32,000 nt of DNA from Megasphaera elsdenii DSM 20460 (GTDB lineage Bacteria > Bacillota > Negativicutes > Veillonellales > Megasphaeraceae). Every line of letters begins with the position of its first letter. Within the stretch, counting starts at the first letter, position 1. Below are positions 4,878 to 32,000 of this stretch, piece by piece. A program made the position numbers and the translations under genes. The DNA lies in contig NZ_CP027570.1 of assembly GCF_003010495.1 (NCBI RefSeq), forward strand, positions 1,800,001 to 1,832,000. The letters run 5' to 3'. The notes below the pieces were generated by a model that was given only the letters and a program-made list of their open reading frames with translations, did no database searches and was not told the origin of the DNA.

Positions 4878-5610
4878 CGGGTATTACGGCCGCAAGCCGT
4901 CGCGGTCCTATGAAGGCATCATCCTGACCGTCCGCAAGACCAGTGCCAAGCAGCTCGTCGTCACCGTCCTGACCCGGCAGGCCGGCATCCTCCATGTCCT
5001 GGCCCGCCGCAGTACCCAGGGCAAGATGGGTTATGGGACGCTGGCTCCGCTGGCGGAGATGACCTTCGACGTCTTTGAAAAGGATGGCGTCTACACCTTG
5101 ACGGAATACGACTGCCGCAGCAACAAGCGCCTTCGCCAGCTGACCTGGGACGGCTATGTCTATTCGCAGATCTTCGTCGAAATAGTCCTCTTCATGGCCG
5201 GCGGCGAAGCCGACGAAGTCCTGTATAACCTGGTCCGCCTCTACGGCCGGGCCATTGAACTCAAGGACGTCCGCATCGTCACCCTCATCGCCGGCTGGCA
5301 GCTCATGGCCTTGACCGGCTTCCTGCCGGACATCGACACGGCCCGCGTCTTCTATCAGGGCCAGGGCTATTGCCAGCAGCCCGTCTATTACATCGACGAC
5401 GAAATGCCGGAAAACATGAAAGAACTGCCACTGACGCCGACTGTCCGCCAGACCTGGAAGACCCTGGTCCATTATCCCTGGGGAACCGAAAAAACAGTGA
5501 ACCTGCGCGGATCGGACTTGAAATTCCTGGAAGCCCTGCTCTACAACTACGTAAACCAATGCAGCGAACGCCAGATGAAGACACCGGAATTATTAGTGGC
5601 TCGTGGCTAG
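4867..5610 (+). CDS. recO: DNA repair protein RecO
   Basis: Size and position directly after era match the Firmicute era-recO arrangement. N-terminal OB-fold-like pattern (YEGIILTVRK...). The start overlaps the upstream gene by 11 nt. The last five codons lie inside a heptamer repeat array. Confidence 0.8.
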   Translation: MRRSGYYGRKPSRSYEGIILTVRKTSAKQLVVTVLTRQAGILHVLARRSTQGKMGYGTLAPLAEMTFDVFEKDGVYTLTEYDCRSNKRLRQLTWDGYVYSQIFVEIVLFMAGGEADEVLYNLVRLYGRAIELKDVRIVTLIAGWQLMALTGFLPDIDTARVFYQGQGYCQQPVYYIDDEMPENMKELPLTPTVRQTWKTLVHYPWGTEKTVNLRGSDLKFLEALLYNYVNQCSERQMKTPELLVARG

Positions 5611-5802
5611 CGGTTCGTGGTTCGTGGCTAGTGGTTCGTAGGATCGGCCCGCCTGGCTCTCCTGATAGGAGAGCTGTCAGCGAAGCTGACTGAGAGGTTG
5701 CTCTTTCAACATAGTTTGTAGCACGGAGTTTGTAGAAGAGGACCCTAAATTTAAAGCCATCCGCTAACCACTAGCAACTAACAACTAACAACTAACAACT
5801 AA
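5596..5802. repeat. Mosaic intergenic repeat cluster R1
   Basis: Contains a heptamer array GTGGCTN x~6.5 (5596-5642) and a double-hairpin module (CTCTCC-tgata-GGAGAG 5657-5673, GTCAGC-gaa-GCTGAC 5676-5690, then TGAGAGGTTG). Also TAGTTTGTAGCACGGAGTTTGTAGAAGAG (5711-5740, recurs at 17734-17763) and the inverse-type heptamer array (CAACTAA)n at 5761-5802. Confidence 0.9.
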
Positions 5803-5836
5803 AAAGAGGTTGTCGCACATGCGGCAGCCTCTTTTT
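5801..5836. terminator. Bidirectional rho-independent terminator (conserved TGTCGCA...TGCGGCA hairpin family)
   Basis: AAAAA-GAGGTTGTCGC-acat-GCGGCAGCCTC-TTTTT. A-tract and T-tract flank the stem. It sits between convergent recO (+) and the RAYT-like gene (-). Confidence 0.8.
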
Positions 5837-5843
5837 GCTCCCT

Positions 5844-6326
5844 TCACCGTTTATGCAGCGGGTCGTATTTCCAGTGATGGGCATATTCTTTTAAACTTTC
5901 AGCGACGGCGTATTGAGCCGCATCTGTATAGACCATCTGAGCCTCTACCGGCTCTTCCCAGATGGGAGACGGCCATTCGCGGGGCGGCTCGATGTAGTAG
6001 AGCAGAAATTCTTTGACCTTTTCGATGAACCATTCTGGCAGGCGGGGATGGAATTTCTTATAAAAGATGAATAAGTGGATGTGGTTGGGCATGACCGTAA
6101 ATTCTTTGATGATGGCAATCTGGTTGTTCCGCTGCATGGCTTTGAGGGCCCGCGTCGCAGCCATGCCCCAGTCCGTCGGCTGCCAGACATGCTGTCCCTG
6201 ATGGCGCCGGACTTTCCCTAAAGTCTCTTCCTTTTGGTACGTACAGAGCGTGATGAGCTGGTACCGGGGAACGGTGGAGAATGGTTCCAGCCATGAGGGG
6301 ATAGAAAAAAACGGTCTGTGATACAT
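5844..6326 (-). CDS. HUH (Y1) transposase-fold protein, resembles REP-associated tyrosine transposase (RAYT / IS200-like)
   Basis: HUH motif in FTVMPNHIHLFIF, preceded by YQLITLCTYQKEETLG, which resembles the RAYT N-terminal beta-strand motif (YF.T.CT..R...FG). The C-terminal region IWEEP...AAQYAVAE...HHWKYD carries candidate catalytic Tyr residues. I trim the track ORF (6395) to ATG 6326, which has GGAGGTG 7 nt upstream. There are no IS200-type flanking hairpin ends and no tnpB. Confidence 0.55.
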   Translation of the reverse strand: MYHRPFFSIPSWLEPFSTVPRYQLITLCTYQKEETLGKVRRHQGQHVWQPTDWGMAATRALKAMQRNNQIAIIKEFTVMPNHIHLFIFYKKFHPRLPEWFIEKVKEFLLYYIEPPREWPSPIWEEPVEAQMVYTDAAQYAVAESLKEYAHHWKYDPLHKR

Positions 6327-6448
6327 GGGACTGCACCTCCAAGATAACAAAACCTTTAAAACAAGCTGTGTCGTTGCTTCGATTGTACCGGACAATTATG
6401 AGAGGAATATTAAAAAAAGGGAGAACTTCATTAAAAAAAGATTAGAAC

Positions 6449-6476
6449 TTGTTTTTGCTGGACAGCGTGGTATAAT
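6449..6476 (+). promoter_or_regulatory. Candidate sigma70-type promoter with extended -10 for the MATE gene
   Basis: TTGTTT (6449-6454), a 16-nt spacer ending in TGg, then TATAAT (6471-6476). It lies ~45 nt upstream of ATG 6522. Confidence 0.45.
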
Positions 6477-6521
6477 AAAAATATTTTCACTTCGTGCACG
6501 TTGTGCAGAAAGGACGATTCT

Positions 6522-7877
6522 ATGGTTCGCAGTATGACTTCGGGCAATCCCATCCGCCTCATCCTGGCTTTTACCGTGCCCCTTTTGATAGGAAACGTTT
6601 TCCAGCAATTCTATAATATCGCCGACATCATCATCGTCGGCCGGACCATCGGTGTCAATGCCCTGGCTGCTGTCGGTGCCGTCGCGCCGGTCTTCATGGC
6701 CGTCTTTGGTCTGACCATCGGCTTGTCGTCCGGTTTTTCCGTCATCACAGGCCAGCGCTTCGGCGCTGAAGATATGGACGGCGTGCGCCGGTCTGTGACG
6801 ACGTCAGCCATGCTGGCCCTGGCTTTGACGCTTCTGCTGACCCTTGGCGTCAGCCTGGCCATGCCGCTCATCATGCGGCTTATGAACATATCTGATGTTT
6901 TATACGACGATGCCTATCATTATATGCTCATCGTCGTCCTCGGCCTGGTGGCCATGATGAGTTATAATCTCCTGTCCTGTATCTGCCGGGCCCTCGGCGA
7001 CAGCCGGACTCCACTCTATTTCCTCATCGTGTCGTCCCTCTTGAACATCGCCCTGGCCTTGCTGTTCATCGTCGTCTTTGGCTGGGGCGTTCCCGGTTCG
7101 GCCATCGCCCTGGTCATCGCTCAGGCCGTTTCGGCCATACTCTGTCTGTGTTTCATGCGCCGCCGTTTTCCCATGCTGCGCCTGACCCGGGCCGACTGGG
7201 CCTTCGACTGGCCCTTTGCCTGGCAGCACCTGCGCCTGGGTCTGCCCATGGCCGTCCAGTTCCTCATCATCTCCATGGGCATCCTGGTCCTCCAGTCGGT
7301 CTGCAATACTTTTGGACCCGAAACCATTGCCGGCTTCGTATCGGCGACGAAAATCGAACAGCTGGCCTTGCAGCCCATGATTTCCTTCGGCATCGCCATG
7401 GCCGTCTATTCGGCCCAGAACTACGGCGCCAGCCAGTACGGCCGCATCCGCCAGGGCGTCCGCCAGTGCTCCCTCGTGTCCCTGGCGTTCTGCCTGGTCG
7501 CAGCCGTTGCCATGTACAGCTATGGGCGGGAACTCATCAGCGTCTTCACGACGGACCATGACGAAATCCTCATGGAACAGGCCTTCCTCTATCTGAAGAT
7601 GTCCGTTCCTTTTTATATCTTCCTGGGCCAGATTTTCGTCTACCGCAACGCCTTGCAGGGCATGGGTATTTCCAGCGTACCCCTCATCAGCAGCATCCTG
7701 GAACTGGGCGGCCGCAGCGTTTCGGCCCTGGTCCTGGCCGCCATGTGGGGCTACTTCGGCATCTGCTGTGCCAGTCCCATCTGCTGGGTCATGGCCTGCC
7801 TGTTCACAGGCGGCTCCTACTTCTGGGTCATGCACACCATGAAAGCCAAAGGTGTTGAGAGAAGAGTGGAAGCATAA
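6522..7877 (+). CDS. MATE family efflux transporter
   Basis: 12-TM protein of ~450 aa with a MATE N-terminal signature (PIRLILAFTVPLLIGNVFQQFYNIADIIIVGR). I prefer ATG 6522 (AAAGGA upstream) to the track's TTG 6501. Confidence 0.88.
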   Translation: MVRSMTSGNPIRLILAFTVPLLIGNVFQQFYNIADIIIVGRTIGVNALAAVGAVAPVFMAVFGLTIGLSSGFSVITGQRFGAEDMDGVRRSVTTSAMLALALTLLLTLGVSLAMPLIMRLMNISDVLYDDAYHYMLIVVLGLVAMMSYNLLSCICRALGDSRTPLYFLIVSSLLNIALALLFIVVFGWGVPGSAIALVIAQAVSAILCLCFMRRRFPMLRLTRADWAFDWPFAWQHLRLGLPMAVQFLIISMGILVLQSVCNTFGPETIAGFVSATKIEQLALQPMISFGIAMAVYSAQNYGASQYGRIRQGVRQCSLVSLAFCLVAAVAMYSYGRELISVFTTDHDEILMEQAFLYLKMSVPFYIFLGQIFVYRNALQGMGISSVPLISSILELGGRSVSALVLAAMWGYFGICCASPICWVMACLFTGGSYFWVMHTMKAKGVERRVEA

Positions 7878-16805: not shown

Positions 16806-17290
16806 CTATAAAGCGAATATAGCGAATATAGCGCAGATGGCAGGCCGCCGTCCGCAATGGCCCTGATAGGGGAGCTGTCAGCAAAGCTGACTGAGAGGTT
16901 GATTTCCTGTCAAATAGTATCGCCGTCCGCTCGGACTCAGATGCGGCGTTCCGCCGCGACAGACTCATGATTGTATTACGACCGTGTGTTACCTGTCATA
17001 AATTCCGGCTGTGCTCAAGATTCACGCGGCCTTTTTGGCCCGTCAGGTGCCGACCAGCGGAAGGCGCAGGACGGCTGCCAAAACGGACAGCTGTGGCTGG
17101 GCAGCCCGTTATGAGATTTGGCCATACCTATTCTTGTATGATGGTAGGTTTTTACGAGCCACGAACCACGAGCCACTATTTTTTACGAGCCGAGGGGTTC
17201 CCGCGGCGATGTCGTCAATTTGAGCTTGTCGCCGCGTAGCGGCAGCTGAGTTCGAGGCGAGCGGTCTGCGGCCGTCAGGCCCTTGACTCT
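16806..17290. repeat. Mosaic intergenic repeat cluster R5, containing a ~330-bp unit bounded by inverted repeats
   Basis: 9-mer tandem AGCGAATAT x2.5, then the double-hairpin module (16861-16915). The left arm TCGGACTCAGATGCGGCGTTCCGCCGCGACAGACTCA (16931-16968) is followed by the ~140-bp module also found at 20339-20470 and a heptamer array (17154-17176). The inverted right arm lies at 17187-17257 and the boundary hairpin GGCCGTCAGGCCC at 17270-17282. Confidence 0.9.
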
Positions 17291-17318
17291 CATCCATAAA
17301 TATGCTATCCTATACGAA

Positions 17319-17670
17319 TGATGAGTATGAAAAGCAATCGCTAGTGCTTTTGCATTAGAGGAAAGTCCGAGCTCCGTAGGGCAAGATGCCGGCTAACGGC
17401 CGGCGAAGGTGACTTTAGGGATAGTGCCACAGAAATGTGTACCGCCACGCAAGTGGTAAGGGTGGAACGGTGCGGTAAGAGCGCACCAGCGGTGCAGTAA
17501 TGCATCGGCTAGGTAAACCCCATCTGGAGCAAGACCGAATAGGGGAGGGATGAAGCGGCCCGCTGATCTTCCGGGTTGTGTCGCTTGAACATGCCGGCAA
17601 CGGTATGTCTAGATAGATGATTGCTGCTGCGCAAGCAGAACAAAACTCGGCTTACTGATTACTCATCACC
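17319..17670 (+). ncRNA. rnpB: RNase P RNA, bacterial type A
   Basis: Universal motifs GAGGAAAGTCCGAGC (P4 5' strand), GGTAAGGGTGGAACGGTGCGGTAAGAGCGCACC and AGAACAAAACTCGGCTTA (P4 3' strand). P1 pairs GATGAGTA (17320-17327) with TACTCATC (17660-17667). The ends are accurate to a few nt only. Confidence 0.93.
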
Positions 17671-17817
17671 TTGTGAATGTAAAGGGGTTGTCGTGCGAAG
17701 GTTCCTGCCATCATGCGAGACCCCTTTCTCTTTATAGTTTATAGTACGGAGTTTGTAGTAGAAGATGACTTTAAATTTAAAAAACTTCACTACAAACTAC
17801 AAACTTAGCACTCAAAA
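17671..17817. repeat. Mosaic intergenic repeat cluster R6
   Basis: Imperfect terminator-family hairpin GGGGTTGTCGTGCGA...GCGAGACCCC (about 17684-17724). Then a large inverted repeat, GAGTTTGTAGTAGAAG (17749-17764) against CTTCACTACAAACT (17786-17799), with ACTACAA heptamers and CTTAGCACTCAAAAGG. Confidence 0.8.
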
Positions 17818-17845
17818 GGCGCTGTCTTTATGCGACAGCGCCTTT
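17818..17845 (+). terminator. Terminator-like hairpin (conserved family)
   Basis: GGCGCTGTC-tttatgc-GACAGCGCC-TTT. The T-tract is short, so efficiency is uncertain. Confidence 0.6.
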
Positions 17846-17960
17846 ACATTTCCCCTTGTCCATGATATTATTTCAATAAGTGGTTTCAGATGGTAATAAA
17901 CCATAAGAATGAATTACCATGATAATGAATACTTAAACAAACAAAAGCGAGGGATTTAAG

Positions 17961-23634: not shown

Positions 23635-24458
23635 TTTTGCTTTTTACGGATTACGAGCCACTGCCTTTCCTCGGACTCAGATGCGGCTGCGCCGCGACAG
23701 ACTCAAACTAACAACGACGCTTCGGGAAGCCCTCAGCACGTAGCGGGCCGCCCGCCGCTACCATCTGTCCAGGTAACCGTTCTGTACTTGACGTGTTAGA
23801 ATATTTTGGGCGGCCCCTACGAATGCGGCTGCGCCGCAACAAACTCATGAAATGAACGCAGTTCGCCGGTCGCAGATGGCAGGCCGCTATGGCCCTGTGG
23901 ACCGCAAAAAAATCACGGCCCATGGCCTTGTGCGTAGGGGCCGTCCCGGTCAGGGCGGCCCGCTGCGATATTCAACCACAGCCTGTCCGAGTATAATGGC
24001 AGGCCTTTACGAGCCACGAACAACGAGCCACTGCTTTTCCCTCGGACTCAGATGCGGCTGCGCCGCGACAGACTCAAACTAACAACGACGCTTCGGGAAG
24101 CCCTCAGCGCGTAGCGGGCCGCCCGCCGCTACCATCTGTCCAGGTAACCGTTCTGTACTTGACGTGTTAGAATATTTTGGGCGGCCCCTACGAATGCGGC
24201 TACACTGCAATAAACTCATGAAATGAACGCAGTTCGCAGGCGGTCGGTCGCAGTCTGCGCGGTCCTATGGATCGCAAAAAAAATCACGGCCAGCGGCCTT
24301 GTGCGTAGGGGACGCCCAGAGGGCGTCCCGCTTGTGAGATTCGACCATAGCCTATCTGAGTATAAGCAGGCTTTTCAAGCTACTAGCCACAAATCACGAG
24401 CCCACGGCTTTTCCTCGGACTCAGATGCGGCTGCGCCGCGACAGACTCAAACTAACAA
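23635..24458. repeat. Mosaic repeat cluster R9: ~372-bp macro-tandem repeat (2 full copies and the start of a third)
   Basis: The anchor TCGGACTCAGATGCGGCTGCGCCGCGACAGACTCAAACTAACAACGACGCTTCGGG starts at 23671, 24042 and 24415 (periods 371 and 373). The first ~160 bp of copies 1 and 2 differ at one position, and the second halves are more diverged. Each unit carries GTAGCGG...CCGCTAC, an inverted CCCCTAC, a forward GTAGGGG palindrome and a heptamer array. Confidence 0.92.
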
Positions 24459-24507
24459 TGGTCCTATGTCAAGATTTCGGACAAATTAAATTGAGGTTTT
24501 TCGTTTC

Positions 24508-28879: not shown

Positions 28880-30217
28880 ATGAAAACAAAAGTATTAGCA
28901 GCTCTCGCAGCAACTATGGCTGTTGGCGCAACTTGCGCTTTCGCAGCTAACCCGTTCGTCGACGTACCGTCTGACAGCTGGGCTTACAAATCCGTCGTAG
29001 AACTCGCTGACGCTGGCATCATCCAGGGTGTCGACGGCCAGTATTTCCAGGGCAACCGTAACATCACTCGTTATGAAGCTGCTGAAATGGTCGCAAAAGC
29101 TATGGCTCACATGGACAAAGCTTCTGTCGAACAGCGTGCCCTCATCAACAAACTTGCTGACGAATATGCTGACGAACTCAACAACCTCGGCGTTCGCGTA
29201 AGCGCTCTGGAAAACCGCGTTGGCAACGTTAAATTGACCGGTGACGCTCGTGTCCGTTATCGTTATCAGGATGGTTCCAAAGAAAATGATAACTCTTGGG
29301 ATTACCGTGTTCGCGTTCGTGCTAATTCGCAAGTCAATGATCGCACAAAAGTTGAATTTGGTGTAAGCACTGACAATCATAATTTCGCTGATAACGGTAC
29401 TGCTAGTAATGCTGAAAACCAGGAAAATAACGGTATCTATGTTGACCGTGCTAATGTTGACTACAACTTCGGTGGCAATAACTGGGATTTGAAAGTTGGC
29501 CGTTATAATTATGTTCTCGGCGGCGATCGTGCTTATGGTTACAATTATGGCGATACCTTTGATGGTGCTCAGTTGAAATATGGCAACGACAAGTTTGCTG
29601 CTACTGCTGGTTACGGTAAGTTTAAAGAAGGCGATATTGCTGGTATTGCAAAAACTAACGATGACGAAGGTCTTGAAGGTACCAAGACTGGCTATGGCGA
29701 ATTGGAAGGCTTCTTCGGCGGCGGCCGTGCAGCTGGTTCGGCTCTCGGTGTTTATTACAATGACTTCAGCGCTAATGATGCAACTCGTGGTGGCCAGGCT
29801 GATGACCTCTGGGGTGCATATGCTAGCTTGAACCTTGGCAAATGGAATGCTTTAGCAAACTATGAAAACGTAAGTTATGCAAAGGATATCAAGACTGCTA
29901 ATGGCAACGATGATAGCGCTAACGTTTGGATTGGCAAATTGACTTATGGCAAAGCTGGTTTCGCTACACCGAAATCTTGGGATGCTTGGGTTGAATACAT
30001 CAATGCTGAAGATGGTGCTTTCGTCGGCGGCTCCACTAATGGTTGGAGATGGGGCAACCACATGGATAATATCGAATCCTGGGGTGTCGGCGCTGACTAC
30101 ACCTTCGCTAAGAATGCTATGTTCCAGGTTATGCAGTCCTTCGGCACGAATACCAAAGACGGCAACGCAAAAGATCCGGAAGAACAGACTCGTGCTCAGT
30201 TCGTATTCGTATTCTAA
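28880..30217 (+). CDS. SLH-domain outer-membrane porin (Mep45-like major OMP of Negativicutes)
   Basis: Signal peptide MKTKVLAALAATMAVGATCAFA|ANPF and an SLH domain (FVDVPSDSWAYKSVVELADAGIIQG...ITRYEAAEMVAKAM). A coiled-coil linker is followed by a Gly/Tyr/Asp-rich beta-barrel region ending in the aromatic OMP signal QFVFVF. Confidence 0.88.
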   Translation: MKTKVLAALAATMAVGATCAFAANPFVDVPSDSWAYKSVVELADAGIIQGVDGQYFQGNRNITRYEAAEMVAKAMAHMDKASVEQRALINKLADEYADELNNLGVRVSALENRVGNVKLTGDARVRYRYQDGSKENDNSWDYRVRVRANSQVNDRTKVEFGVSTDNHNFADNGTASNAENQENNGIYVDRANVDYNFGGNNWDLKVGRYNYVLGGDRAYGYNYGDTFDGAQLKYGNDKFAATAGYGKFKEGDIAGIAKTNDDEGLEGTKTGYGELEGFFGGGRAAGSALGVYYNDFSANDATRGGQADDLWGAYASLNLGKWNALANYENVSYAKDIKTANGNDDSANVWIGKLTYGKAGFATPKSWDAWVEYINAEDGAFVGGSTNGWRWGNHMDNIESWGVGADYTFAKNAMFQVMQSFGTNTKDGNAKDPEEQTRAQFVFVF

Positions 30218-30242
30218 TCCTTCCTTTTGCAGGAAGATTACA

Positions 30243-30278
30243 AAAAGACCACTCAGAAATGGGTGGTCTTTTTTTTTG
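30243..30278 (+). terminator. Rho-independent terminator
   Basis: AAAAAGACCAC-tcagaaatg-GGTGGTCTTTTTTTTT. Confidence 0.88.
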
Positions 30279-30307
30279 AGAAATATTTTGCCTGAAGGAG
30301 CTGAATT

Positions 30308-30955
30308 ATGATATCTCGTGAAGTTAATTTTGCTATATTTTCCTTAGCAATTATTTTTTGGACTGTTTATGTTTTTGTGACTATTAATCATTTTTTTAGC
30401 TTGATAAGAAACTTAAAAATAATATTTTTTGACATGAGAAAGTGTGTAAAAAATATTATTTATTATCAGATTAAAAATTATCCAAATGAAATTGTGGAAT
30501 ATTGTGAAAGGACAATAGTAAGCCATCCTTTTCTTTGTTTAGGAATCTGCTCTTGGATTACGTTGCTTTCCGTCTATTCTTCAGCCATTTTTTTGGAATA
30601 TCAATCTATTATTGCTATTGCACTAGAGATATTCTTTTTAATCTTTATTTTATGGATATGGAGAATAGCTCAAAACAAAAATGAAGGTATTTTTTTCTTT
30701 ATTGTATCAGGTGTCCTCTGTATATTTTTGGATATGTGTATAAAATCCATTCTGCCGGCTTATTCAATACATATGATTTTATGGGTAATAACACTGTTTT
30801 TCATTATAGCAATTGCATTGCCTAATATTAAAGATAATCATATAGATAGGTTGATGTATTTTTTTTATAAGGGAGTTGCCGCCTTTTTATTTTGGTTTGT
30901 GTTTTTAGTAGTTACACCTTCTGATTTAACTATAAAAAATTATGGCAATTTATAG
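30308..30955 (+). CDS. Hypothetical polytopic membrane protein on an AT-rich insert
   Basis: 215 aa with about 5-6 hydrophobic segments rich in Ile/Phe/Leu/Asn/Lys. The segment is visibly much more AT-rich than the rest of the window. GGAG lies 6 nt upstream of the ATG. I recognise no family. Confidence 0.5.
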   Translation: MISREVNFAIFSLAIIFWTVYVFVTINHFFSLIRNLKIIFFDMRKCVKNIIYYQIKNYPNEIVEYCERTIVSHPFLCLGICSWITLLSVYSSAIFLEYQSIIAIALEIFFLIFILWIWRIAQNKNEGIFFFIVSGVLCIFLDMCIKSILPAYSIHMILWVITLFFIIAIALPNIKDNHIDRLMYFFYKGVAAFLFWFVFLVVTPSDLTIKNYGNL

Positions 30956-31119
30956 TAACTTTTTTTTCACATATTGAGTAAGCAAACTATAGTAATTTTG
31001 AAGAATGTTTAGTGTTTCTATACTTTCTACACATATAATGGTAAATGAAATAATATAGCCATTTGTGTATATGTTAAATTGATATAACTGATAATATATG
31101 GCTTAGATATGCGATTTAT

Positions 31120-32000
31120 TTGGTGTCTTGGAAATATGCGAATATCAGCAAACTCGCTGACGAATATTCTGACGAACTCAATAACCTCGGCGTTCGCGTA
31201 AGCGCTTTGGAAAACCGCGTCGGCAACGTAAAACTCACCGGTGATGCTCGTATCCGTTACATTCACCAGAGCGAAGGCGATAAAGATAAAGAAGGCAATC
31301 CGGTCAATGCAGCTAAGAAGAACGATGACTCCTGGTCCTACCGTGTCCGCGTCCGCGCTAATGCTCAGGTCAACGACCGTACGAAAGTAACTTACGGTAT
31401 CAGCTCGGATGACAAGACCTTCTCCGATAATTCTCAGGCTTCTGATGAAGATAATGACATCTACACGGATCTCGCTAACGTCGATTACAACTTCGGCGGC
31501 AACAACTGGGACCTCCTTGTAGGCCGTTATGAATACGACATGGGCAATGGCCACGGCTATGGCTTCCTCTATGGCGATACCTTCGACGGCGCTCAGTTGC
31601 AGTATCACAACGACAAATTTGCTGCCACCGCTGGTTATGGTAAATTTAAAGAAGACTCGATGGCTACGGATACCGATGGTGTCAAGACCGGCTACGGTGA
31701 ATTAGATGGCTTCTTCGGCGGTGGCCGTGCAGCTGGTTCGGCCGTTGGTGTTTACTACAACGATTATACTATTGCTGGTGGCAAGGATCGTACAGGTAGC
31801 TTTGGTTTTGATGATTCTTGGGGCGCTTATGCTAGTGCTAATTTCGGTAAATGGAATGCCTTGGCTAACTATGAAAAATATAACAATACGGACAGCTCTA
31901 AGGACGATCCCGAAGTATGGGTTGGCCGCCTGACCTACGGTGCTGCCAACTTCGCTACGCCGAAATCTTGGGACGCTTGGGTTGAATACCTCAATGCTGA
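31120..32000 (+). pseudogene. Second SLH-porin paralogue, 5'-truncated (lacks signal peptide and SLH domain); runs off the window end
   Basis: The frame is open from after TAA 31075-31077 to base 32000. From ~31144 it is colinear with codon ~89 onward of the first porin (ISKLADEYSDELNNLGVRVSALENRVGNVKLTGDARIRY..., ...ATPKSWDAWVEYLNA). Sequence upstream of 31141 is unrelated and AT-rich. Only TTG/GTG at 31120/31123 are available as starts and neither has an RBS. It is absent from the ORF track because it has no ATG and no stop within the window. Confidence 0.6.

What the first reader, a model, noticed from the sequence alone, without database searches (positions are those of the whole stretch)
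5844..6326. Solo RAYT-like HUH gene abutting a repeat cluster: candidate mobiliser of the REP-like family
Seen: a 160-codon minus-strand ORF with a strong RBS carries an HUH motif (VMPNHIHLFIF). It also has an N-terminal YQLITLCTYQKEETLG segment and C-terminal Tyr candidates (AAQYAVAE, KEYAHHW). No partner tnpB or IS200-type ends are present. Its 3' flank (5596-5843) is one of the mosaic clusters, but its 5' flank (6327-6500) is plain AT-rich DNA, so it is not bracketed by REPs on both sides as classical RAYT genes are. Established: RAYTs are single-copy domesticated Y1 (IS200-like) transposases that co-occur with, and cleave or join, GTAG-headed REP hairpins. Inference: this is the enzyme partner of the repeats listed above. 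The usual YxxNP context around the catalytic Tyr is not obvious, so the protein could be divergent or inactive.
Basis: partly seen in the sequence, partly recalled or inferred. Interest (0 to 1): 0.65.

Follow-up and report, generated by a model that had tools for sequence, protein, structure and literature searches.

The report
Tyrosine-less RAYT-like gene beside recO
The ORF is a real, selected, single-copy Megasphaera gene descended from REP-associated HUH transposases, but it has lost the catalytic tyrosine and is not bracketed by REPs, so it is unlikely to mobilise the neighbouring repeats in the classical way.

Summary
ORF 5844-6326 (-) has a GGAGGTG ribosome-binding site and an MPNHIH (HUH) motif, with a repeat cluster 3' of it and plain AT-rich DNA 5' of it. 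The protein falls below the Pfam and NCBIfam cut-offs. A profile of its relatives nevertheless matches E. coli TnpA_REP (4er8, E=4.5e-7). An AlphaFold model (pLDDT 87) matches only Y1 HUH transposases in its top 28 PDB hits. 37 of 40 relatives hit the NCBIfam RAYT model at E<=0.01. It is therefore RAYT-derived.

In a gap-free, doubly anchored alignment, the catalytic Tyr column (E. coli Y115) is Ser144. The metal-ligand Asn column is Tyr148. Across the surrounding clade, 19 of 23 sequences lack the Tyr while HUH is invariant.

The gene is single-copy and under purifying selection (dN/dS 0.06-0.20). It sits at MatE|X|recO even in relatives only about 30% identical, and those loci have no REPs. 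The 3' repeat content varies between species, and 10 of 16 intergenic regions in the window carry such repeats, so adjacency means little.

Verdict: a domesticated RAYT derivative with a remodelled active site, and not a demonstrated REP mobiliser. Whether M. elsdenii has another, canonical RAYT could not be tested.

The parts
5844..6326 (-). CDS 'X', 160 aa: a RAYT-derived Y1-HUH protein that lacks the canonical catalytic Tyr
   Evidence: ORF and sequence. Orthologues in 5 Megasphaera genomes. dN/dS 0.06-0.20. AF2 pLDDT 86.9, with the top 28 Foldseek PDB hits all Y1 HUH transposases.
6075..6083 (-). HUH motif codons, H82-I-H84 of MPNHIH
   Evidence: N81, H82 and H84 are invariant in all 40 aligned sequences. 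They align with the HUH of 4er8, 2xm3 and 2f4f.
5895..5897 (-). Ser144 codon (AGT) at the column of the catalytic Tyr (E. coli TnpA_REP Y115, ISDra2 Y132)
   Evidence: A gap-free block between W123 and W152/D155 fixes the register. The profile-to-PDB alignment places the family's YIxxNP on DYIYINP of 4er8. Ser is present in all Megasphaera elsdenii-group orthologues.
5883..5885 (-). Tyr148 codon at the column of the metal-ligand Asn (YxxxN)
   Evidence: This column is N in 17 of 17 classical relatives. In the clade it is H in 14 of 23 and Y in only 4 M. elsdenii-group sequences. The role of N119 is taken from PMC6006769.
5865..5867 (-). Tyr154 codon in the WxYD motif, a clade-specific conserved Tyr and possible relocated nucleophile (speculative)
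   Evidence: Y in 19 of 23 clade members, and not conserved in classical relatives.
6334..6340 (-). Ribosome-binding site GGAGGTG, 7 nt upstream of the ATG
   Evidence: Read directly from the sequence. Conserved as GGAGGTG in all Megasphaera loci.
6327..6500 (.). Divergent promoter region shared with the MatE gene. It is AT-rich and repeat-free, with a conserved TACAAT (6382-6387, minus strand) as a putative -10 box.
   Evidence: No match to any other part of the window. Alignable and REP-free in six Megasphaera loci. The promoter assignment is an inference.
5800..5840 (.). Bidirectional intrinsic-terminator hairpin (A-run, stem, T-run) directly after the stop codon of X
   Evidence: Folds at -25.6 kcal/mol (z -6.9) on the + strand and -16.2 kcal/mol on the - strand. 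Conserved with compensatory changes (GAGGC..GCCTC vs GGGCTT..AAGCCC) across species.
5596..5799 (.). Mosaic repeat cluster between the recO stop and the terminator. It holds inverted heptamer arrays (5603-5636, 5766-5799), module D14 (5654-5700) and a degenerate REP head GTAGGATCGGCCCGCC (5638-5653) that has no stem partner.
   Evidence: the repeat finder families D12, D14, I4, I15, I16 and I24. It lies upstream of the + strand terminator, so it is more likely part of the recO 3' UTR than of the X transcript (inference).

Best explanation
X is an anciently domesticated descendant of a class-2 (RAYT/TnpA_REP-type) Y1-HUH transposase. It has been inherited vertically at a fixed chromosomal site (MatE | X | recO, convergent with recO) in Megasphaera and relatives. 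It keeps the HUH fold and the two metal-binding histidines. It has lost the canonical nucleophile Tyr (now Ser144) together with a set of active-site-associated residues: WQ to WE, H130 to Q, R133 variable, and the metal-ligand Asn to His or Tyr. It has gained new conserved residues (W48, P50, Y154). The most likely mode of action is inferred, not shown. The protein probably still binds single-stranded or hairpin DNA at its HUH face, possibly with a three-ligand metal site. It probably no longer performs the covalent 5'-phosphotyrosine cut-and-join reaction of RAYTs. Under this reading it serves a host function rather than mobilising the adjacent repeats. The neighbouring mosaic cluster would then be a secondary invader of the recO 3' UTR, one of many such clusters in this genome.
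For: Family and fold. The A3 profile hits 4er8 TnpA_REP at E=4.5e-7 and IS200/ISDra2 chains at E<=1e-4. 36 of 40 relatives hit Pfam Y1_Tnp and 37 of 40 hit NCBIfam REP_Tyr_transpos at E<=0.01. The AF2 model has pLDDT 86.9, and the top 28 Foldseek hits are all Y1 HUH transposases, with 4er8 at TMq 0.53.

Tyr loss. The catalytic column is Y in 17 of 17 aligned and 39 of 39 anchored classical relatives, but in only 4 of 23 clade members. It is Ser in every M. elsdenii-group orthologue. The register is confirmed against Y115 of 4er8 and Y132 of ISDra2.

Function retained. dN/dS is 0.06-0.20. The C-terminal helix is identical across five species. HUH is invariant.

Vertical inheritance. There is one locus per genome in 5 Megasphaera species. 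The same MatE/X/RecO/CNNM/Era synteny appears at 28-35% identity.

No REPtron. No repeats lie 5' in any locus. The 3' content is variable and is absent in L002, L005, L006, L010, L055, L057 and L058. Flank hits in the clade match background (4 of 13 loci against P=0.17 per locus), whereas 14 of 20 classical relatives have GTAG hairpins within 400 nt. 10 of 16 window intergenic regions carry repeats.
Against: The genome is very rich in GTAG-headed REPs. These look recently dynamic, because the orthologous intergenic region differs between species that are 91-94% identical in RecO, so some mobiliser should exist. No other Y1 gene was seen in about 140 kb of Megasphaera DNA held here, although that is only a small fraction of a genome. 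Classical relatives of the same family are REP-associated with GTAGGGG-type heads, for example L019. One relocated clade member (L007) has a GTAG palindrome upstream and a decayed copy downstream. Tyr139, Tyr148 and Tyr154 are conserved in the M. elsdenii group and could substitute as nucleophiles. DNA binding was not tested and the active-site geometry could not be measured.
Confidence: 0.55

Rival explanations
1. X is still the active REP mobiliser (a true RAYT) of M. elsdenii. It acts in trans on the GTAG hairpins and uses a relocated nucleophile (Tyr154 of the clade-specific WxYD motif, or Tyr139 or Tyr148) in place of the canonical Tyr.
For: It belongs to the RAYT-type family. It is single-copy. 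IMG already names it RayT. GTAG REPs are abundant in the same genome. A convergent REP pair lies directly 3' of the gene in L001, L004 and L012-L014. Tyr154 was gained in 19 of 23 clade members as Tyr144 was lost. No other Y1 gene is present in the DNA held here.
Against: Tyr-to-Phe mutants of three RAYTs are inactive (PMC8266576), and the equivalent column here is Ser. The metal-ligand Asn is also replaced. Tyr139 and Tyr148 are not conserved beyond the closest species. Two clade members lack both Tyr144 and Tyr154 (P0033, P0039). There is no REP 5' of the gene in any locus. Orthologues exist in loci and contigs without REPs. Flank hits are not enriched over background.
Confidence: 0.2
2. X is a metal-dependent hydrolytic ssDNA or hairpin nuclease. 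The HUH site plus His or Tyr at position 148 would activate water, so no covalent tyrosyl intermediate forms. It would process hairpin DNA or RNA for a host purpose, possibly recombination or repair near recO.
For: HUH is invariant and the Asn ligand is replaced by His in 14 of 23 clade members, which would keep or strengthen a three-ligand metal site. Purifying selection is strong. Linkage to recO is persistent.
Against: No tool result speaks to hydrolytic activity. In the window protein itself, position 148 is Tyr rather than His. The recO linkage is convergent, not co-transcribed, and could be plain inherited synteny.
Confidence: 0.15
3. X is a decaying relic, that is a pseudogenising former RAYT with no current function.
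For: It has lost catalytic residues. It is the fastest-evolving gene in its neighbourhood: X is 28-35% identical where CNNM is 66-68%. Several metagenome-derived homologues are frameshifted. PMC6006769 treats members without core motifs as probably non-functional.
Against: dN/dS is 0.06-0.20 in all 15 species pairs. Intact 160-aa forms dominate, with clusters of 187, 321 and 79 members against 1-6 for the frameshifted ones. New clade-specific residues are conserved. The RBS and terminator are conserved.
Confidence: 0.04
4. X is the transposase of a mobile IS200/IS605-type insertion sequence.
For: Weak sequence similarity to IS200 transposases.
Against: There is one syntenic copy per genome, no tnpB, no subterminal hairpins at both ends, a class-2-type NHIH/W motif context rather than DH[VI]H...Y---Q, and vertical inheritance.
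Confidence: 0.01

Closest known systems
RAYT / TnpA_REP (class 2 TnpA_Y1 of Quentin et al. 2018; E. coli YafM/RayT, PDB 4er8)
   Same: It has the Y1-HUH fold, with 4er8 as the best profile hit and the highest query TM-score. It shows an NH[IV]H-type HUH, a conserved Trp about 40 residues after HUH and a HUH-to-Tyr-column spacing of 60 aa, inside the 58-67 typical range. It is a single-copy, vertically inherited, housekeeping-like gene. The host genome is rich in GTAG-headed palindromes.
   Different: The defining Y---NP motif is S---YA. The gene is not embedded in a REPtron, since no REP lies 5' of it and the 3' content is variable. It scores 14.8 bits against NF047646, whose cut-off is 80. 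Q124, H130 and R133, which are conserved in the relatives, have been replaced.
Subclass 2.4 (Bertels Group 4)-like 'MPNHIH...WQ...YIxNNP' proteins, the classical relatives recovered here (P0044-P0105, L016-L054)
   Same: These are the nearest sequence relatives, at E 1e-6 to 1e-3 against the clade profile. They share the T26, L36, G54, MPNHxH, K105, W123 and W152xxD155 framework. Their motif pattern matches Table 1 of PMC6006769. The subclass assignment is made by motif only and was not tested by phylogeny.
   Different: All of them keep Y and N (39 of 39), and most are flanked by GTAG hairpins (14 of 20). The Megasphaera clade has neither feature.
IS200/IS605 TnpA (IS608, ISDra2; PF01797)
   Same: Same fold, with the top Foldseek hits 2xm3, 2xma and 2f4f. 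The same HUH chemistry is expected.
   Different: These are multi-copy mobile elements with subterminal hairpins, often a tnpB partner, and a Y---Q motif. None of these features applies here.

Membership tests
Y1 HUH transposase superfamily (TnpA_Y1; Pfam PF01797) | HUH metal-binding motif on a central beta-strand | tested here: met
   H82-I-H84 is invariant in 40 of 40 aligned sequences. It aligns to the HUH of 4er8, 2xm3 and 2f4f.
Y1 HUH transposase superfamily (TnpA_Y1; Pfam PF01797) | The beta-alpha-beta-beta-alpha-beta core fold followed by a C-terminal helix | tested here: met
   The AF2 model has pLDDT 86.9 and pTM 0.83, with elements E21-29, E37-42, E45-50, H52-65, E71-78, E82-89, H96-111, E128-132 and H135-146. 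The top 28 Foldseek PDB hits are all Y1 transposases at probability 1.00.
Y1 HUH transposase superfamily (TnpA_Y1; Pfam PF01797) | Score above the curated Pfam gathering threshold | tested here: not met
   16.8 bits against a cut-off of 23, E=0.0074, covering residues 57-90 only. Homology is established only at profile and fold level.
Y1 HUH transposase superfamily (TnpA_Y1; Pfam PF01797) | Catalytic Tyr on the C-terminal helix (Y---Q, Y---NP or Y----Q) | tested here: not met
   The column is Ser144. It is non-Tyr in 19 of 23 clade members and Tyr in all classical relatives.
RAYT / TnpA_REP (REPtron) | Y---NP motif, with Asn as the third metal ligand | tested here: not met
   The sequence reads S144-L-K-E-Y148-A. 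The Asn column is Tyr here and His in 14 of 23 clade members. The motif definition comes from PMC6006769.
RAYT / TnpA_REP (REPtron) | Single or low copy number, vertically inherited, housekeeping-like | tested here: met
   5 loci in 5 Megasphaera species genomes, all syntenic. There is one Y1 gene per locus. The criterion comes from PMC5581495.
RAYT / TnpA_REP (REPtron) | Gene flanked by cognate REPs or REPINs, typically on both sides | tested here: not met
   The 5' intergenic region is repeat-free in all 13 clade loci. The 3' side ranges from a REP pair (L001, L004) through a degenerate head (window) to nothing (L002, L005, L006, L010, L057, L058).
RAYT / TnpA_REP (REPtron) | Co-occurrence of the gene with an abundant GTAG-headed REP family in the genome | tested here: inconclusive
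   GTAGGGG hairpins are common in M. elsdenii-group loci and absent from about 40 kb of loci holding more distant orthologues. Only 2-20 kb per genome could be sampled, and whole genomes were not available.
RAYT / TnpA_REP (REPtron) | NCBIfam NF047646 equivalog cut-off | tested here: not met
   14.8 bits against a cut-off of 80. At E<=0.01, 37 of 40 relatives match the model, with a best E-value of 2.5e-22.
RAYT / TnpA_REP (REPtron) | Sequence-specific binding, cleavage and joining of ssDNA REPs | not testable with these tools
   This needs biochemistry. Tyr-to-Phe mutants of three RAYTs are inactive (PMC8266576).
IS200/IS605 insertion sequence | Multiple near-identical copies, subterminal hairpins at both ends, and frequently a tnpB partner | tested here: not met
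   There is one syntenic copy per genome. The neighbours are RecO and MatE. The only hairpin is a terminator 3' of the gene.

The most novel reading that the evidence does not exclude
The Megasphaera clade may be a neo-functionalised RAYT lineage with a rebuilt active site. HUH is kept, the Asn ligand has become His or Tyr, the canonical Tyr is lost, and a new conserved Tyr154 has appeared in a WxYD motif. If X turns out to be the only Y1-HUH gene in these REP-rich genomes, it would drive REP and mosaic-cluster dynamics through a relocated nucleophile or a tyrosine-independent mechanism. Alternatively it could act as a non-cleaving REP or ssDNA-hairpin binding factor tied to the recO locus. 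Either case would give the first defined host function for a domesticated RAYT.
Probability: 0.17. Interest if true: 0.75.

Novelty: new variant of a known kind. Interest (0 to 1): 0.5.

Why it matters
What domesticated RAYTs do for their hosts is an open question (PMC5581495, PMC6006769). Surveys have set aside members without the HuH and Y motifs as probably non-functional. Here a whole clade lacks the catalytic Tyr yet is under strong purifying selection. It has held one chromosomal position across deep divergence, and it lives in a genome packed with GTAG REPs and BIME-like mosaics. That makes it a natural separation-of-function case. It can show whether RAYT-type proteins have a role that depends on HUH and DNA binding but not on strand transfer. 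It can also show whether REP dynamics in a Gram-negative-type Firmicute need a canonical RAYT at all. On the practical side, the automatic label 'REP element-mobilizing transposase RayT' for this protein overstates what the sequence supports.

Tried and rejected
- Single-sequence searches (Pfam, NCBIfam, PDB phmmer) gave only sub-threshold hits. The link needed profiles and structure.
- A first AF2 model from 7 close sequences was mediocre (pLDDT 67). It was replaced by a 40-sequence model.
- PADLOC and PHROGs gave nothing meaningful, so there is no defence or phage link.
- Rfam found no RNA family near the gene.
- The built-in terminator scan missed the hairpin after the stop codon. Folding and cross-species comparison showed it.
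- Pseudogene reading: rejected by dN/dS.
- IS200 element reading: rejected by synteny and copy number.
Tyr139 is conserved only down to about 52% identity and lies 5 residues from the canonical column. Tyr148 occupies the Asn-ligand column and is Ala or His in P0017 and P0023.
It added few clade members but gave a useful control set of classical relatives.
- Literature searches for REPs in Megasphaera and for Tyr-less domesticated HUH proteins found nothing relevant.

Full report
**1. Observation**

The minus-strand ORF is real. It runs from ATG 6326 to the stop at 5844 and encodes 160 aa. A longer TTG-initiated version (6395, 183 aa) is unlikely, because GGAGGTG sits 7 nt upstream of the ATG at 6334-6340 and is conserved in every Megasphaera locus.

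The neighbours are Era, a CNNM/CorC protein and RecO on the + strand upstream, and a divergently transcribed MatE transporter on the other side. There is no tnpB.

The 3' intergenic region (5611-5843) shares 107 nt with repeats elsewhere in the window. The 5' region (6327-6500) shares none.

**2. Family and fold**

On its own the protein fails every curated threshold:
- Pfam Y1_Tnp: 16.8 bits against a cut-off of 23.
- NCBIfam REP_Tyr_transpos: 14.8 bits against 80, and IS200: 14.2 bits against 55.
- PDB by phmmer: nothing significant.

An exhaustive profile search of 1.84 billion representatives found 90 relatives at E<=1e-3. Aligning 40 of them (A3) bridges the protein to the well-known 'YFITICT...MPNHIH...WQRSFYDHIIR...YIxxNPxxWxxD' proteins.
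- 36 of 40 members hit Pfam Y1_Tnp and 37 of 40 hit NCBIfam REP_Tyr_transpos at E<=0.01, with a best E-value of 2.5e-22.
- The A3 profile's best solved-structure match is E. coli TnpA_REP (4er8, E=4.5e-7), followed by ISDra2 and IS200 transposases.
- An AlphaFold model built on A3 is confident (pLDDT 86.9, pTM 0.83) and has the expected beta-alpha-beta-beta-alpha-beta-helix order.
- Its top 28 Foldseek hits in the PDB are all Y1-HUH transposases. 4er8 has the highest query-normalised TM-score among the top 28 hits, 0.53, tied with 2a6m_B. An earlier, poorer model gave the same answer.

The protein is therefore a Y1-HUH protein of the RAYT (class 2) type. By motif pattern (NH[IFV]H / WQ / YIxNNP) its classical relatives resemble subclass 2.4 of Quentin et al. 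(PMC6006769). That assignment rests on motif only.

**3. The active site is remodelled**

Between the invariant W123 and the invariant W152/D155 the alignment has no gaps, so the register is fixed on both sides. The profile-to-PDB alignment puts the family's 'eYIeeNP' on 'DYIYINP' of TnpA_REP (Y115, N119) and on 'KYIESQ' of ISDra2 (Y132).

| Column | Classical relatives | Window | Surrounding clade (23) |
|---|---|---|---|
| Catalytic Tyr | Y in 17 of 17 aligned and 39 of 39 anchored by rule | Ser144 (AGT, two changes from a Tyr codon) | Y in only 4; otherwise S, H, T, N, C, A, E or F |
| Metal-ligand Asn (Y+4) | N in all | Tyr148 | His in 14 |

Every M. elsdenii-group orthologue has Ser at the catalytic column.

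Other residues conserved in classical relatives are also replaced: Q124, H130, R133, and Y23/F24. HUH, T26, G54, K105, W123, W152 and D155 stay fixed. New clade-specific residues appear: G37, W48, P50, F100, P121, Y154, L157.

- Tyr139 is five residues off the catalytic column and is conserved only down to about 52% identity.
- Tyr148 is Ala or His in P0017 and P0023.
- Tyr154, in a WxYD motif, is the only Tyr that is broadly conserved in the clade (19 of 23). Two members (P0033, P0039) lack both Tyr144 and Tyr154.

In three experimentally studied RAYTs the Tyr-to-Phe mutant is inactive (PMC8266576). Quentin et al. describe the HuH and Y motifs as universal, and treat sequences lacking core motifs as probably non-functional.

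**4. The gene is functional and vertically inherited**

Pairwise dN/dS among six Megasphaera orthologues is 0.06-0.20, with dS of 0.3-1.9. The C-terminal helix is identical across five species. Intact forms dominate the metagenomic clusters, with 187, 321 and 79 members against 1-6 for the frameshifted ones.

A scan of one genome per species (185,579 species) found the gene in only five genomes, all Megasphaera. Each has one copy, and the four contigs long enough to show it all have the CNNM-RecO-X-MatE order.

Relatives at 28-35% identity occupy the same place:
- L010 and L011: MatE | X | RecO | CNNM | Era | Cdd | YbeY | PhoH.
- L058 and L059: the same order, with one extra hydrolase gene.
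- L006, L055 and L057: X convergent with RecO.

Two such relatives carry NCBI names from Megasphaera MAGs. Three lineages have the gene elsewhere (L007, L009, L015).

X is the fastest-evolving gene of its neighbourhood. It is 28-35% identical where RecO is 35-48% and CNNM 66-68%.

**5. Relation to the repeats**

Directly after the stop codon lies a bidirectional terminator hairpin (5800-5840). It folds at -25.6 kcal/mol on the + strand and -16.2 kcal/mol on the - strand, and it is conserved with compensatory changes. The repeat cluster (5596-5799) lies beyond this hairpin. It is therefore between the recO stop and the terminator, which is the usual position of REP and BIME elements in 3' UTRs (inference).

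Its content differs between close species:
- L001, L004 and L012-L014: a convergent pair of perfect GTAGGGG hairpins plus other modules.
- Window and L003: a degenerate REP head and modules.
- L002: heptamer arrays only.
- L005: nothing.

In the distant syntenic loci the X-recO spacer is 6-98 nt and holds only a terminator. No locus has a repeat 5' of the gene.

In the window, 10 of 16 intergenic regions of at least 40 nt carry repeats found elsewhere in the window. Adjacency to one cluster is therefore expected by chance.

With a strict GTAG-plus-hairpin detector, 4 of 13 clade loci have a hit within 400 nt. Two of these four are the same event and one is a coding-region false positive. The background probability is 0.17 per locus. 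In contrast, 14 of 20 classical relatives with adequate flanks have such hairpins, four of them on both sides. One example is L019, with YIGNNP and GTAGGGG-headed hairpins on both sides.

GTAGGGG hairpins are frequent in M. elsdenii-group loci. They were not seen in about 40 kb of loci from the more distant X-bearing lineages.

**6. What keeps the mobiliser idea alive**

- The family's classical members are REP-associated and use the same GTAGGGG head.
- The M. elsdenii REPs look recently dynamic.
- No other Y1 gene occurs in the Megasphaera DNA I hold, though that is only about 5% of a genome.
- In L007 the relocated homologue has a perfect GTAGGGGTCGATG-ACG-CATCGACCCCTAC palindrome 150 nt upstream and a decayed copy about 70 nt downstream.

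I could not scan a whole Megasphaera genome for a second, canonical RAYT. That is the decisive missing test.

**7. Interpretation**

Shown:
- RAYT-type ancestry and fold.
- Loss of the canonical Tyr and Asn.
- Invariant HUH.
- Purifying selection.
- Fixed synteny.
- No REPtron architecture.

Inferred: the protein still binds ssDNA or hairpins at the HUH face but no longer performs tyrosyl-mediated cut-and-join. It would serve a host function, and the adjacent cluster would be incidental.

Rivals are an active mobiliser with a relocated Tyr (probability 0.2), a hydrolytic nuclease (0.15), a decaying relic (0.04) and an IS200 element (0.01).

**8. Comparison and novelty**

The protein works on the scaffold of a RAYT but fails the defining tests for membership: the Y---NP motif, REP flanks, and the curated model cut-off. 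IMG already labels it 'REP element-mobilizing transposase RayT', and NCBI labels it 'transposase' or 'hypothetical protein'. So the gene and its general family are known.

What is new is a conserved, selected, Tyr-less clade fixed beside recO in a REP-rich Firmicute. I rate this a new variant of a known kind, with moderate interest (0.5).

Noticed in passing
window 17322-17669 (+): Bacterial RNase P RNA class A (283 bits). It sits inside the 1.1-kb stretch 16806-17960 and is flanked by mosaic repeat clusters on its 5' side.
   Followed up: no
window 5596-5640 and 5766-5799: Arrays of degenerate heptamers (GTGGCTC / GTGGTTC / GTAGGAT and their complements AACCACT / AACTAAC) form an inverted pair (I16, 76% complementary) that brackets the 3' cluster. 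The first array overlaps the last five codons of recO (…VARG*). The same arrays recur in other clusters (D1, I15, I21, I24) and at the recO end in L001, L002 and L004. Some units contain CGTAGG, which resembles REP heads.
   Followed up: partly
window 5800-5840: A bidirectional terminator lies between X and the repeat cluster. It is stronger in the recO sense (-25.6 kcal/mol) than in the X sense (-16.2 kcal/mol), and it shows compensatory stem changes between species. The simple terminator scan missed it.
   Followed up: yes
L007 5814-5850 and about 6515-6545: A relocated clade member (P0025, Thr at the Tyr column, positioned metI | X | bioY) has a perfect GTAG-headed palindrome TGTAGGGGTCGATGACGCATCGACCCCTACA upstream and a decayed copy (GGTCGATGACACATCGATTCTTAC) downstream. 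This may be a relic of a REPtron.
   Followed up: partly
L019 5700-6622: A classical relative with an intact YIGNNP motif is flanked on both sides by GTAGGGG-headed, GC-rich hairpins. It served as a positive control for what a REPtron looks like in this family.
   Followed up: partly
window 23637-24460: Three tandem copies of a repeat unit of about 371 nt (D2 is 222 nt at 93% identity; D3, D7 and D13 share the 371-373 nt spacing). The units contain GTAGCGGGCCGCCC-type palindromes, which suggests recent local amplification of a mosaic block.
   Followed up: no
window 29144-32000: Two paralogous coding segments about 2000 nt apart (D5, D15, D19, D20; 72-91% identity). This looks like a tandem gene duplication with unusually low GC3 (0.24-0.44) compared with the rest of the window.
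   Followed up: no
homologues P0006, P0010, P0011, P0013, P0018, P0019, P0022: Several metagenome-derived homologues are frame-shifted chimeras of the X frame and the overlapping alternative frame (the MAGTLLYRSPVPAHH... N-termini). Cluster sizes are small (1-6), so these are either assembly errors or occasional strain-level pseudogenisation.
   Followed up: partly
window 5865-5867 (Tyr154) and alignment A3: A WxYD motif with a clade-specific Tyr is gained in 19 of 23 members of the clade that lost the canonical Tyr. Two members that keep the canonical Tyr (P0035, P0037) lack it.
   Followed up: partly
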